Source of the DNA: the human T2T-CHM13v2.0 reference genome, Homo sapiens
DNA: 64,000 nucleotides
NCBI RefSeq assembly: GCF_009914755.1
Contig: NC_060925.1
Direction: 5' to 3' (one strand)
A model generated the notes under the pieces. It searched no databases and was not told where the DNA came from. It worked only from the letters and a program-made list of their open reading frames with translations. The translations under genes and the position numbers were made by a program. Within the stretch, counting starts at the first letter, position 1, and every line of letters begins with the position of its first letter. Positions 29,110-59,719 of this stretch are shown piece after piece.

Positions 29110-29392
29110 CTTATACATATGCAAATACATATACATAGATAAGACATATAGATAATTTCTATTCAGAAATTATGCAAATAAGAAGACAGTGGAGTAAAAT
29201 TTTTAATGTTTTTAGGAAGAAAAAAAAATTCTACCGAAATGAAATTTTATATCCAGAGAAAATATCCCTTTTCTCTGGATATTTGCCACCTCCTTGACCC
29301 GTTAAACAAAATAGTCAAGGAAATTGCTCAGAAAGATCAGAAAGATTAAAAATAATTAAAAAAAACTTAGACACTCCGTATGGCCTAATAAG

Positions 29393-50238: not shown

Positions 50239-50657
50239 CAGGGTGCCCAACCTCCAGGCCATGGATGTGAACCAGCCTGTGGCCTGCTGGGAACCAGGCC
50301 ACACAGCAAGAGGTGAGGAGTGGGCAAGGGAGCATTACCACCTGAGCTCCACCTCGTGTCAGATCAGCGATGGAATTAGAATCTTTTTTTTTTTTTTTTT
50401 GAGACAGAGTCTCACTCTGTTGCCCAGGCTGGAGTGCAGTGGTGCAATCTTGGCATTAGATTCTTATGGGAGGGTGAAACCTATTGTGAACTGCGCATGC
50501 AAGGGATCTAGGTTGCACATTCCTTATAAGAATCTAATGCCTGATGATCTAAGGTGGAGCAGCTTCATCCTGAAACCACCCCGTCACTCCCCCATATGTG
50601 AAAGATTTTTCTTCCATGAAACTAGTCCCTGGTACCAAAAATAGTGGGGACCACTGC
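50239..50657 (+). mobile_element. MER1B split by a truncated Alu
   Basis: cagggtgcccaacctccaggccatgg...gtcagatcagc...ttccatgaaactagtccctggtaccaaaa..gtggggaccactg. Confidence 0.9.
50384..50454 (-). mobile_element. Severely 5'-truncated Alu (about 54 bp plus tail)
   Basis: T17 gagacagagtctcactctgttgcccaggctggagtgcagtggtgcaatcttggc; TSD tggaattagaatctt / tggcattagattctt. Confidence 0.93.
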
Positions 50658-55323: not shown

Positions 55324-56201
55324 CCTAATTGTGATTAAAAAAAAATTTATGTTACTGGCATAAAAACAGACATATAATCTAATGGAACACAAGAGAGAGT
55401 TCAGAAATAAACCCAAGCCTATACAATCAACCAATTTTTGTACAAGAGCACCAAGAATACACAATGGGAAGAGGATAGTCTCTCCATTAAATTTTGCTAA
55501 GAGAACTGGATATCTACATGCAAAACAAAAAATCTGGACCCTTATCTTATACCATATAAAAAAATCAACTCAAAATGAATAAAAACTCTAAATGTAAAGC
55601 CTGACATCAATACTCTACAATGAAATATATGGTGAGGCCTTACACTTAATGTTTTTATTCATTTTGTATATCTTATTTGAACAAAAAGTATATTTTTCCT
55701 TTGGTTGTCTGACACTTGACAATGGCATTGGCAACGATTGCTTCAATATGACACAAAACAATCAGACAATCAAAGGAAAAATAAAACTAAATATAATATC
55801 AAACCAAAAAACAAGTGAGAATATTAAATCCAAAAACTTATGCACAGCAAAAGAAACAGCAAAATGAAAAAGTCAGGATGTGTATTGGAAGAAAATATTT
55901 GCAAACCATGTATCTTGCAAGGAGTTAATATCTAAAAATACATTAGGAACTCCCACAACTCAATAACACACATGCACAAAAAAACTGATTTTAAAATTAG
56001 AAAACAACCTAAATTTACAGTTTTTCAAAGAAGATATACAAATAGCCAGTGTATAAAAATGTGTTCAATATCACTAATCATGAGGGAAAGGCAAGTCAAA
56101 ACCAAAAAAAGCTATCATATCACATATTTATAGCAGCAATATTCATAGTAGCAAAGATAGGGAATCAATCTAAGCATCCATCAGTGAACAAATGGATAAA
56201 G

Positions 56202-56630
56202 TAAACCTCATATCTATATATGTGTGCATGTGCGTATATATATATGAGGTTTTATATATAATTTTTATATAATATGTGTACACACAGAAACACACACATA
56301 TTTAACCTATATATGAGGCTTTACATATATATAGGTTGTATACATGTAAATATATATATGAGGTGTTTTATATATGTGAGGTTATATACATAAACTATAT
56401 ATAAAGCATATATAGATATAAAACCTATATATAAAACCCTATATATAAATATATATAAAACCTCATATATGTAGGTTATATATATATTTGTATGTGTTTG
56501 TGTGTGTATATATACACACGTGTATATTATATAAAATATAATATGTATGTATATTATGTATTATATATAATATGTTATGTATTATATATTATATACACAC
56601 GTGTATATATATACACACTCAAACACACAT
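56202..56630. repeat. AT-rich low-complexity tract built from (TA)n plus aacct(c)at / at(g)aggtt units
   Basis: About 430 bp; the same motif recurs in both orientations. Confidence 0.9.
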
Positions 56631-56847
56631 GGAAGGCTATTTAACCACAAAAAAAAGAATAATGTTGGATCATTTGCAGCAACATGGATGGAACTAGAGG
56701 ACATTATGTCAAGTGAAATAAGCCAGGCACAGAAAGGCAAATGCTGCATATTCTTACTAGTATGTGGGAGCTAAAAATTTAATCTCATTGCCAGTTAGAG
56801 AGTGCCAACTCATGGAGTTAGTTACCAAATCCGGGATGGCTGTGTGT

Positions 56848-56872
56848 ATGGTGGTGGTGGTGGTGGTGGTGG
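56848..56872. repeat. (GGT)n microsatellite
   Basis: ggtggtggtggtggtggtggtgg. Confidence 0.9.
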
Positions 56873-57269
56873 GGAGAGGTGGGTGAAGAGAGATTGGTAT
56901 ATGGGTAGAAACATAAATTCAGATCGAAAGAATAAATCATGATGTTCAATAGCAGAGCAGATTGAATATAGTTTGTGTATTTCAAAATAAATAGCAAACA
57001 GTCTTGAAATGTTCCTAACAAGAAAAATGATAAATGCTCGATGTGTTGGGTTTCCTAATTACCCTGACCTGATCATTACACATTCTACGCATGTAAAAAA
57101 ATGTTATATAATCCCAATAAATATGTACAAATCTTTTGTATCAATGAAACGTTCAAGAATAAAAAAAGTAGCAGTAGTGTAGGATGAAGTATAGAGTTCT
57201 AATATACAGCATGATGACTATAGTTAATAATCCTGTATTTGAAACTGGAAAATTACTATAGGAATAATG

Positions 57270-57532
57270 AGACATATCTGGACAACATAGTGAGGAACTA
57301 TTTCTACAAGAAGAAACAACAACAACAACAACAACAAACAACAAAATGTATCTAGTCATGGTGTTGTGTGCCTGTAGTCCTAGCTACCTGAGAGGCTGAG
57401 CTGTGAGGATCACTTGAGCTCATGAGTTTGAGGTAAGCTATGATTGTGACACTGCACTCCAACCTGATGACAGAGTGAGAGCCTGTTTTTAACTAAAAAA
57501 GAAAAAAAAAGAAAGAAAGAAAGATAAAGAAA
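57270..57532 (+). mobile_element. 5'-truncated AluJ with (CAA)n linker
   Basis: ctggacaacatagtgag...gcctgtagtcctagctac...ggatcacttgagc...cactgcactccaacctg. Confidence 0.88.
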
Positions 57533-57534
57533 AG

Positions 57535-58310
57535 TTATTCAATATTTTTACCCATCAGGGAAATGAAAATCAAAACCACAGAGAGATAACAGTTTACACC
57601 TACTAGGATGGCTATAATTTTAAAATTACAGCTGAAAACACGTATTTGTGAGTATGCAGAAAAATTTTAGGCTTTAACATTGTTAGCAGGAATGAAAAAT
57701 CGTGCATCTACTGTGCAGAACAGTTTGGCAGTATCTCAACATGTAAAACATATATTTACTCTATGATCTGGTAATTCCATTCCTAGATATTTACCCAAGA
57801 GAAATGAAAACTTATGTCTGCACAAAGACATGTACATAGGTGTTAATAGCACCATCATTCACAATAACCAAAAAATGGCAAGCTCAAAAATTCACATCAA
57901 CTGATGAAAGAAATGTGATGTATAAATGAATATTGTTTGCAATAAAATTAATGAAGAAATATATGTGCTTATAAATGCTGTATTGTAGTTGAAACTTGAA
58001 ACAATTTTTCCAAGTGAAGGAAACCCTTCACAAAATAATGCATATTCTATGATTTTATTTGTTTGAAATGTCCACAGTAAGCAAATTTATTGAAACAGAG
58101 AGTATATTAGTGATGCCCTAGGGCTGATGGTTTGGTGAGAAATGGGGAATGACTACTGATGACTACAGAATTTATTCTGGGTTGAAAAACGTTCTTAATT
58201 TGATGGTGATAATGTTTTCACAATTGCATAAATGTACTAAAAATTTGAATTGTATAATTTTAATGTGTGAAGTGTAACATACATGAATATACTCCTATAA
58301 AGTTTTTTAA
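57535..58310 (+). mobile_element. Old L1 (L1MB8/L1ME-like) ORF2 end and 3' UTR
   Basis: aaatcaaaaccaca..gagata...tacccaagagaaatgaaaacttatgtc..cacaaagac...gaaatgtccacagtaagcaaat. Confidence 0.85.
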
Positions 58311-58387
58311 AGTTACCTTATACTAACATGGAAATTATATGTGATGTTTTATCTCAAAAAGGGAGGATGAGATTAGAACTACTTAAT

Positions 58388-58483
58388 TTGATGTTTGTTG
58401 TTCTAAGCAGGCAAAACAGAGTGAAGGACCCGCCTGAATAATGCTCTCAGAGCATTTTGCCTGCTTAGAACAACAAACATCAA
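58388..58483. repeat. Perfect 29-bp inverted repeat with 38-bp spacer
   Basis: ttgatgtttgttgttctaagcaggcaaaa (58388-58416) and ttttgcctgcttagaacaacaaacatcaa (58455-58483). Confidence 0.97.
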
Positions 58484-59719
58484 TGCATTCCCAGGAGGAA
58501 CTAATCTTAAGGACATTACATTCACCTGTTTGCTTTTACCTTCATACTCTGTATTGTTTACATTCATCATTAGCTGTATTGATAATAAATTGAAGTAAAA
58601 GCAATTGAAGATGAGTCAAAGTTGTTGTTTTTATTAAATTTTGAACATAGTTGACGTTATATGTTTTGCCATTGTCCAGGTGAGTTTGGAAGAACTATGG
58701 TCTTTGATGACATCAATATGCTATGGGATCAATGTACTCTGAAGGAAGAACAAATTTAGTAGTTCTAATTGGGCTAATACTAAACATTATATATTAATCG
58801 TAATGGTACAGTTATTTACCAATTAAAATAAACATGTAAACAATCAAACCAACCACTAGTAAGTCATTCTTATCAAAATATACTGGCTTTCCCGTCTTCA
58901 CTTGGAATAATGCAATTATATTGTTTTCTTTTCCAGATTTGAAATAATATTTTTCAATGTTTTTCTCTTAAAATTTATAAATTAAATTTAAAAAAATTCC
59001 TTAGTGTATACTTACATACAAGTATCTATATAGTCACTGTTTTACTTATTTGATTGTGCTAGCAACAGTTATTTCTATCTGTAATGTTGATGGAACTTGA
59101 AACAATTTTTCCAAGGATATTGAAATAACTATCTCTAGTCCAGCAAAGAAGTAATGTGGAAAATAGGGAACATCTCCTACAACTCCAAAGACAGTTTGAT
59201 TTGTGGAAGAGGTAATAACTGACAAGAGCTGTACCATATATTATTGCCACTTTTAGAATGGTAGTAAACCAGGAACAAAATAAAGAAGTAAATAGCTAGA
59301 TCTCCTTCTTCTGTTTTTAGACTTCTCATTAGTGCTTCTCATTGTGAAAATAGTGAGTCATTCGATATAGTTACTCAAGTGATGCATTTCTTTCAGATAT
59401 GTCATATTTGACATCGAGTATATCCGAAAGAAAAGAATGGCACAAAAAAACAGGATGATATATTGAAAAACATAAGAAATACATTCAGGCAAAGCATGAG
59501 ATTCATGAAATAATCAATTATAAAATGTCTCTTAGGTCTTCCTTTTTCCAAAAAAATAGACTTGACAAACTACCTACACTTTTTTCAGCTCAATATAAAA
59601 ATTAAAAAAAACTTGATGTAAAACCCATCTTCACTCCTACGAGCCTTAAAGGCCAGTTACAGTGACAATCTGTGAGTTGTTTAATCACATCTAGTCTGAA
59701 TAGAACAAAAAATAATTTC

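What the first reader, a model, noticed from the sequence alone, without database searches (positions are those of the whole stretch)
58388..58483. Perfect 29-bp inverted repeat in unique DNA: a young 96-nt hairpin
The arms are 100% complementary, complex in sequence and match no TE terminus I recognise. Overlapping the spacer end is a second palindrome, aatgctct-c-agagcatt (58440-58456), which runs directly into the right arm. This suggests a fold-back followed by a second switch that copied the left arm. If transcribed it would give a pre-miRNA-sized stem on either strand, matching the template-switch route proposed for de novo miRNA birth. Expression is unknown.
Basis: partly seen in the sequence, partly recalled or inferred. 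Interest (0 to 1): 0.7.

Follow-up and report, generated by a model that had tools for sequence, protein, structure and literature searches.

The report
Hairpin scar from chained template switching
This is a real, single-copy, perfect 29-base inverted repeat in unannotated human DNA, likely the scar of a DNA-copying slip that pasted in reversed copies of two nearby stretches, a well-described kind of mutation, and nothing found here indicates a microRNA gene.

Summary
The hairpin is real. Arms 58388-58416 and 58455-58483 are 29/29 complementary around a 38-nt spacer, far beyond chance. The arm occurs nowhere else in the genome at up to 3 mismatches and has no target-site duplication, so it is not a MITE.

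58372-58390 is an 18/19 inverted copy of 58751-58769 and overlaps the left arm's outer end by 3 nt. This favours the left side as the new DNA, made by chained template switches from two templates 270 nt apart. No outgroup was available, so polarity is inferred.

A similar three-template insertion lies 2.7 kb away in an old repeat, where paralogues lack it.

Perfect arms only bound the age loosely (under about 5% divergence per copy). A miRNA is unlikely: the stem is 29 bp with no basal extension, the loop is branched, CNNC is absent, the site is intergenic, and there is no Rfam or RefSeq entry. Published work counts 6,054 such hairpins, 0.9% annotated as miRNAs. It is an ordinary, uncatalogued member of a known class.

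The parts
58388..58416 (+). Left arm, 29 nt; inferred to be the new copy (fragment B)
   Evidence: 29/29 reverse complement of 58455-58483; single-copy
58455..58483 (+). Right arm, 29 nt; inferred template of fragment B
   Evidence: no templated neighbour at its outer end
58372..58390 (+). Fragment A: inverted copy of 58751-58769, overlapping the left arm's first 3 nt (TTG microhomology); inferred new
   Evidence: 18/19 match, ends sharp on both sides; the only two exact hits of the degenerate 19-mer in the genome are these two sites; boundary statistic
58751..58769 (-). Inferred donor of fragment A, 360 nt from its copy and about 270 nt from the right arm
   Evidence: (I6)
58440..58456 (.). 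Small palindrome (8-bp arms, 1-nt centre) at the foot of the right arm; either a first fold-back of the same event or an older hairpin that positioned it
   Evidence: chance about 0.7% per 45 nt and 0.1% within 3 nt of a fixed point; DNA hairpin -4.8 kcal/mol
58417..58439 (+). 23-nt unpaired spacer segment, probably original forward sequence between inverted fragments
   Evidence: single-copy; no significant local template (p = 0.12 against real 23-mers)

Best explanation
The hairpin is likely the scar of one germline chained template-switch event in which the left-hand block 58372-58416 was probably newly copied, in reverse, from two nearby templates (58455-58483 and 58751-58769). Read on the minus strand, a stalled or broken 3' end would fold back on DNA it had just made and anneal at the A-run at the foot of the small palindrome. 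It would copy 29 nt, hop through a 3-nt microhomology to a second template about 270 nt further back, copy 16 nt more, and return to the normal template near 58371. The small palindrome would be either a first 8-nt fold-back, with the 23-nt segment as an ordinary forward stretch in between, or an older hairpin that guided the fold-back. The mirror-image route (plus strand switching to the opposite strand ahead of the fork) gives the same sequence. The product is most likely neutral and not a gene. Shown: the three inverted matches, the 3-nt overlap, single-copy status. Inferred: polarity, single event, order of steps, neutrality. A template-switch origin of any polarity is about 0.9; this version is about 0.6.
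For: Arms 29/29 and unique. Fragment A 18/19, with both matches ending sharply and overlapping by exactly TTG. Longest near-exact local match covering the 8 nt outside each arm is 19 nt on the left and under 8 on the right; 41 of 2,500 random boundaries in unmasked DNA (repeats included) reach 19, and 0 of 522 local positions exceed 14. In 264 kb, 11 complex inverted matches of at least 18/19 within 500 nt were found; 7 look like transposon pairs (family names recalled) and the other 4 all lie in window 55663-58769. 47 of 48 pairs intact is compatible with one event. An internal precedent at 55635-55712 has three inverted fragments, one from 340 nt away, and paralogues are 61-110 nt shorter. 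Chained local switches are described: hsa-mir-561, three switches copying two fragments (PMC10710096 Fig. S3); two inverted fragments separated by a 16-bp forward piece (PMC9435742); 33 and 26 complex germline templated insertions in two people (PMC8421209).
Against: No outgroup allele was seen, so direction and timing are untested. Fragment A was noticed after the fact, has one mismatch and is A+T-rich; the two-boundary chance in unmasked DNA is up to about 3%. Part of it has an alternative exact 12-nt direct match at 58194-58205. Entry and exit junctions cannot be resolved. The locus was not found in the catalogues searched.
Confidence: 0.6

Rival explanations
1. One reading: the right side is new. 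The plus-strand nascent end folds back at 58448, copies 8 nt, skips 23 nt through a 2-nt microhomology, and copies the left arm (or makes a 60-bp palindrome that later loses 25 nt). Fragment A is then unrelated or a separate event.
For: 58449-58483 is exactly the mirror of 58388-58447 minus 25 nt, with prefix match 8, suffix match 29 and overlap 2. It explains the small palindrome, which is unlikely by chance at that spot.
Against: It leaves fragment A, which ends within the left arm's first 3 nt, as a coincidence. The skipped segment forms no stable DNA hairpin (-1.0 kcal/mol). The left-new model explains the palindrome equally well.
Confidence: 0.2
2. An older imperfect inverted repeat was made perfect later by quasi-palindrome correction or by in-place inversion of the loop, so perfection dates the last homogenisation and not the birth.
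For: Loop inversions at existing hairpins are documented (hsa-mir-4713), and microinversions are flanked by perfect or near-perfect repeats (PMC8755829 abstract).
Against: No decayed complementarity continues beyond the arms: 2 of the first 10 outer pairs match. It does not explain fragment A or the origin of the first repeat.
Confidence: 0.12
3. Polymerase-theta end joining at a double-strand break made the insertion by repeated snap-back synthesis, rather than a replication-fork switch.
For: Pol theta makes inverted templated insertions of 3-30 bp, in several rounds, favoured in A+T-rich DNA (PMC7165422). The region is 33% G+C.
Against: Its first tracts are rarely over 10 bp and templates are typically within 30 bp; here tracts are 29 and 19 nt and one donor is 360 nt away. 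The sequence alone cannot name the enzyme, so this overlaps the best explanation.
Confidence: 0.1
4. The arms are terminal inverted repeats of a 96-nt MITE or other DNA transposon.
For: Size and layout resemble a MITE.
Against: No other copy of the arm at up to 3 mismatches, of the spacer or of the region. A real transposon palindrome in the same window gave 15 other copies. No target-site duplication of 2-12 nt. The tool warns that a missing match does not prove rarity.
Confidence: 0.02
5. Whatever its origin, the hairpin is transcribed and processed into a young miRNA.
For: Very stable stem on both strands. Template switches created at least 18 MirGeneDB human miRNAs. An old repeat lies 77 nt upstream and a processed pseudogene 1.7 kb downstream.
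Against: The stem is 29 bp against a preferred 35 and cannot extend basally. Only 14-16 bp remain above a canonical cut, CNNC is absent in 6 of 6 strand/register combinations, and the terminal region is a branched 38 nt. The site is intergenic: 93 kb past LINC01035 and 18.7 kb before LOC105371657. No Rfam match up to E 10. The prior is 0.9% even inside genes, and 99 of 111 such miRNAs are intragenic.
Confidence: 0.02
6. Assembly artefact or a change private to the CHM13 cell line.
For: Only one assembly was seen.
Against: The mismatch in fragment A suggests some age, and the anatomy matches known germline events.
Confidence: 0.02

Closest known systems
Short-range template-switch mutations (four-point model; Walker 2021 PMC7954356; Loytynoja 2022 PMC9435742)
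   Same: New perfect reverse-complement copy of nearby unique DNA giving a single inverted repeat, the commonest outcome in apes.
   Different: The 29-nt fragment is longer than the median of 12. The full parse needs at least two templates, one 360 nt away, outside the roughly 140-nt search space of the ape scan.
Complex MMB-TI, multi-template germline insertions (Osia 2021 PMC8421209)
   Same: Several templates, inverted orientation, junction microhomology, germline, no gross rearrangement.
   Different: Those were called against the reference from reads, with templates sought within 100 bp. This one is in the assembly and its ancestral allele is unseen.
TSM-born primate miRNAs such as hsa-mir-561, -4713, -4735 (Monttinen 2023 PMC10710096)
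   Same: One-step stem; mir-561 needed three switches and two fragments.
   Different: They are mostly intronic and expressed. The hairpin at the expected place of mir-4735 has a 36-bp stem and 7-nt loop (identity from position and recall), against 29 bp, a branched 38-nt loop and no host gene here.
Pol theta templated insertions (TINS; PMC7165422)
   Same: Inverted local copies, repeated rounds, A+T-rich context.
   Different: Typically shorter tracts and templates within 30 bp.
MITEs / non-autonomous DNA transposons
   Same: About 100 nt with terminal inverted repeats.
   Different: Single copy, no target-site duplication.

Membership tests
Template-switch mutation (TSM) | Near-perfect reverse-complement copy (15 nt or more) of a nearby stretch | tested here: met
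   29/29 and 18/19
Template-switch mutation (TSM) | Not a simple repeat or dispersed element | tested here: met
   controls
Template-switch mutation (TSM) | Ancestral or outgroup allele lacks the copy | not testable with these tools
   No other primate genome is held (no relatives)
Simple four-point TSM | One inverted fragment from one template explains the whole change | tested here: not met
   Either polarity needs at least two inverted fragments, unless the palindrome and fragment A are both coincidences
Complex multi-template insertion (MMB-TI / chained TSM) | Two or more templates joined end to end | tested here: met
   58372-58416 is tiled by copies of 58751-58769 and 58455-58483; significance moderate
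Complex multi-template insertion (MMB-TI / chained TSM) | Microhomology at the junctions | tested here: inconclusive
   3 nt at the one resolvable internal junction; entry and exit junctions need the ancestral allele
MITE / DNA transposon | Dispersed copies | tested here: not met
MITE / DNA transposon | Target-site duplication | tested here: not met
   none of 2-12 nt
MITE / DNA transposon | Match to a Dfam family | not testable with these tools
   No repeat library is on hand; the stretch is not among the longest masked stretches in the hub's table
Canonical miRNA gene | Stem of about 35 bp (30-55 in the published hairpin screen) | tested here: not met
   29 bp, no basal extension; criteria. 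On the minus strand the small palindrome stacks on one arm but leaves a 23-nt side branch
Canonical miRNA gene | Unstructured apical loop of 10 nt or more | tested here: inconclusive
   38-nt branched terminal region on both strands
Canonical miRNA gene | Microprocessor motifs (basal UG, CNNC; positions recalled) | tested here: not met
   CNNC in 0 of 6 strand/register combinations; basal UG in 2 of 6, only for a cut that leaves 14 bp
Canonical miRNA gene | Known family or annotation | tested here: not met
   0 of 9 Rfam matches up to E 10 overlap the hairpin; none in the hub's RefSeq table. Rfam also gave no hit on the presumed mir-4735 hairpin at gathering threshold, so this test is weak
Canonical miRNA gene | Transcription and precise 22-nt miR/miR* reads | not testable with these tools
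   No expression data
Pol theta TINS | Tracts mostly 10 nt or less from templates within about 30 bp | tested here: not met
   29- and 19-nt tracts, one donor 360 nt away

The most novel reading that the evidence does not exclude
A 3-kb stretch (55635-58769) carries two multi-template inverted insertions that each reach about 350 nt, from one germline episode or a local hotspot. Long-reach chained switching would then be a regular source of long perfect hairpins that published scans (templates within 100-140 nt, one fragment) miss or assign to the wrong arm. A processed young miRNA is a separate possibility at about 0.02.
Probability: 0.2. Interest if true: 0.45.

Novelty: new member of a known kind. 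Interest (0 to 1): 0.2.

Why it matters
It matters little as a single locus: thousands of template-switch hairpins are already counted in the human lineage and about 1% are annotated as miRNAs. Its modest value is methodological. The flank of a perfect hairpin can carry a second templated fragment that shows which arm is new without an outgroup, a prediction one primate alignment can test. Donors several hundred bases away fall outside current search windows.

Tried and rejected
Templated origin of the 23-nt spacer segment: 6- and 7-nt matches near the fragment-A donor cover 12 of 23 nt, but p = 0.12 against real 23-mers (0.016 against shuffles) with the donor window chosen after the fact; not claimed. 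Its 8-9-nt matches within 1 kb look chance-level. A hairpin in the skipped segment aiding slippage: too weak. Fragment A and its donor as ends of a 400-nt transposon: 10 other hits at 1 mismatch against 7 in the reversed control, no family; no dispersed copies of the interior. The outer helix in the RNA folds (58368-58376 with about 58497-58508) rests on a 7-nt match and is not counted. The bacterial promoter scan is not relevant to human DNA and was at shuffle level. Catalogue look-ups were negative: GRCh38 place estimated at about chr1:189,130,830-189,130,920 from two anchors (offsets 654.4 and 653.7 kb; anchor identities inferred). No row starts 18913 in Walker's six held supplements; the only chr1 rows shown at 188-189 Mb are 188,744,771 and 189,222,254 (places 1-19 of each term). 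None in 21 of 22 supplements of PMC9435742 or 3 of PMC10710096. Four 13-nt arm words are in 0 papers. A genome-wide density of such hairpins was not obtained: 0 arms over 14 bp in 246 kb only bounds it at under about 1 per 80 kb. Earlier scan findings were not available.

Full report
Observation. The repeat is as described: arms 58388-58416 and 58455-58483, 29 of 29 complementary, 38 nt apart. The expected chance number in a whole genome is about 9e-5. Both strands fold with z near -8.6 and 0 of 200 shuffles as stable. The inner palindrome 58440-58456 overlaps the right arm by 2 nt. Such palindromes occur at 10 per 64 kb in the window and 28 per 180 kb in sampled DNA, about 0.7% per 45 nt. In 246 kb of other DNA from this genome no complex perfect arm exceeded 14 bp (low-complexity rows dropped), so the feature is uncommon, but the sample is small.

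Not a transposon. The arm matches only itself genome-wide at up to 3 mismatches, as does the 23-nt spacer segment. Searches with 58340-58540 and 58315-59300 return only this locus. Controls worked: 57910-58311 gave 39 other copies at 67-76% identity among 40 of 303 candidates scored, and the palindrome at 50452 gave 15 other copies. There is no target-site duplication. The tool notes that a blank does not prove rarity, and no Dfam search was possible.

A third piece. 58372-58390 is an inverted copy of 58751-58769 at 18 of 19 and shares its last three bases, TTG, with the start of the left arm. Both matches stop sharply on either side of that overlap. The two sites are the only exact genome-wide hits of the degenerate 19-mer. 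The longest near-exact match within 500 nt covering the 8 nt outside each arm is 19 nt on the left and under 8 on the right. 41 of 2,500 random boundaries reach 19 in unmasked DNA with repeats included, and none of 522 local positions exceeds 14. The test was designed after I saw the match, so I treat it as moderate evidence. An exact 12-nt direct match of 58382-58393 to 58194-58205, inside the old repeat, offers a second parse that also makes the left side new.

Mechanism. The simplest single story is that 58372-58416 is new DNA tiled from two inverted templates. On the minus strand both templates lie behind the growing end, so a fold-back, a 29-nt copy, a hop through 3 nt of microhomology over about 270 nt, a 16-nt copy and a return suffice (inferred). 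A plus-strand switch to the opposite strand ahead of the fork gives the same product; Walker et al. note that such mirror cases cannot be told apart. The small palindrome is either a first short fold-back or an older hairpin at whose foot the end annealed. I put left-new at 0.6, right-new at 0.2 and later homogenisation of an older repeat at 0.12. A template-switch origin of any kind is about 0.9. No outgroup was available, so none of this is shown.

Internal precedent. At 55635-55712, inside an old interspersed repeat (L1-like by recall), three stretches are inverted copies of 55571-55602 (28/32), 56024-56042 (18/19, 340 nt away, 4-nt overlap with the first) and 55762-55783 (21/22). Nine plus-strand paralogues measured, of 16 that matched in two pieces, are 61-110 nt shorter across this span. 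Two of four paralogue loci aligned with window-only gaps here; the other two aligned poorly. So an insertion of the same make, with known polarity, lies 2.7 kb away. It looks older (67/73 against 47/48), but the difference is not significant (p = 0.24).

Age. Intact arms allow up to 0.052 substitutions per site per copy (95%); with fragment A the estimate is 0.010 (0.0003-0.058). On recalled primate divergences this means anywhere within monkeys and apes, not necessarily human-specific. The locus (about GRCh38 chr1:189,130,830-189,130,920, from two inferred anchors) was not found among the human-chimp-gorilla events of Walker et al.. That scan looked about 140 nt for one template, so absence says little about age.

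miRNA. The stem is 29 bp against a preferred 35 and just under the 30-55 used in the published screen. It cannot extend basally, 14-16 bp remain above a canonical cut, and CNNC is absent in all six combinations tried (motif positions recalled). The terminal region is branched. No Rfam match overlaps it (0 of 9), though Rfam also missed the presumed mir-4735 control. The site is 93 kb from LINC01035, 18.7 kb from LOC105371657 and 1.7 kb from GAPDHP75 (hub table). Expression could not be tested.

Comparison with print. Monttinen et al. found 53,666 template switches in genic regions of the human lineage, 6,054 of miRNA size, 57 (0.9%) annotated; hsa-mir-561 needed three switches copying two fragments. 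Loytynoja reports chained events with a 16-bp forward piece between. Osia et al. found 33 of 103 and 26 of 99 germline templated insertions to be complex. Pol theta insertions are typically shorter and closer. The locus works like these and is best filed as an uncatalogued complex template-switch insertion; the defining ancestral allele is untested.

What I read. PMC10710096: main text parts 1-4 of 6, Dataset S1 part 1 of 3, SI part 1 of 3, word searches of three supplements; Dataset S2 was too large, and I did not see a list of the 6,054 loci, which are genic only. PMC7954356: abstract, sections 8 and 24, S2 Data part 1 and word searches; S1 Data too large. PMC9435742: abstract, passages, word search of 21 of 22 supplements, which may not hold the full locus list. 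PMC8421209: passages and section 10 part 1 of 2; supplements not searched. PMC7165422: passages. PMC8755829: part 1 of 5; its supplement is an unreadable scan. PMC5247683: one passage, not relevant. Unseen supplements could list this locus. Searches for the locus in print were made; the listings showed nothing on this hairpin.

Verdict. Real, ordinary in kind, with a slightly richer anatomy than first read and probably the opposite polarity. Interest 0.2; new member of a known kind.

Noticed in passing
window 55635-55712: Probable older multi-template insertion inside an old interspersed repeat: inverted copies of 55571-55602 (28/32), 56024-56042 (18/19) and 55762-55783 (21/22); nine paralogues are 61-110 nt shorter here.
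   Followed up: partly
window 57910-58311: Old dispersed repeat, 39 other copies at 67-76% identity; resembles the 3' end of an L1M element (name recalled). It ends 77 nt before the hairpin and is not among the masked stretches listed in the hub's table.
   Followed up: partly
window 50452-50541: Inverted repeat with 16-bp perfect arms that belongs to a dispersed family, 15 other copies at up to 3 mismatches; resembles a MER1-type DNA transposon palindrome (name recalled).
   Followed up: partly
window 56240-56620: A+T-rich low-complexity tract with many short inverted and palindromic matches.
   Followed up: no
window 59059-59138 and 59382-59438: Two decayed short-spacer inverted repeats (20 nt at 80%, 19 nt at 84%) within 1 kb of the hairpin; possibly chance.
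   Followed up: no
window 57351-57490: 7SL/Alu-like monomer, Rfam Metazoa_SRP E 0.004, below gathering score.
   Followed up: no
window 29249-29282: Perfect 14-bp inverted repeat with a 6-nt loop in complex sequence; possible simple template-switch product.
   Followed up: no
L022:4810-4834: Perfect 11-bp inverted repeat with a 3-nt loop at the place expected for event 491 of Walker et al.; used as a coordinate anchor.
   Followed up: partly
L023:5758-5836: 36-bp, 86% complementary hairpin with a 7-nt loop at the place expected for hsa-mir-4735; no Rfam hit at gathering threshold.
   Followed up: partly
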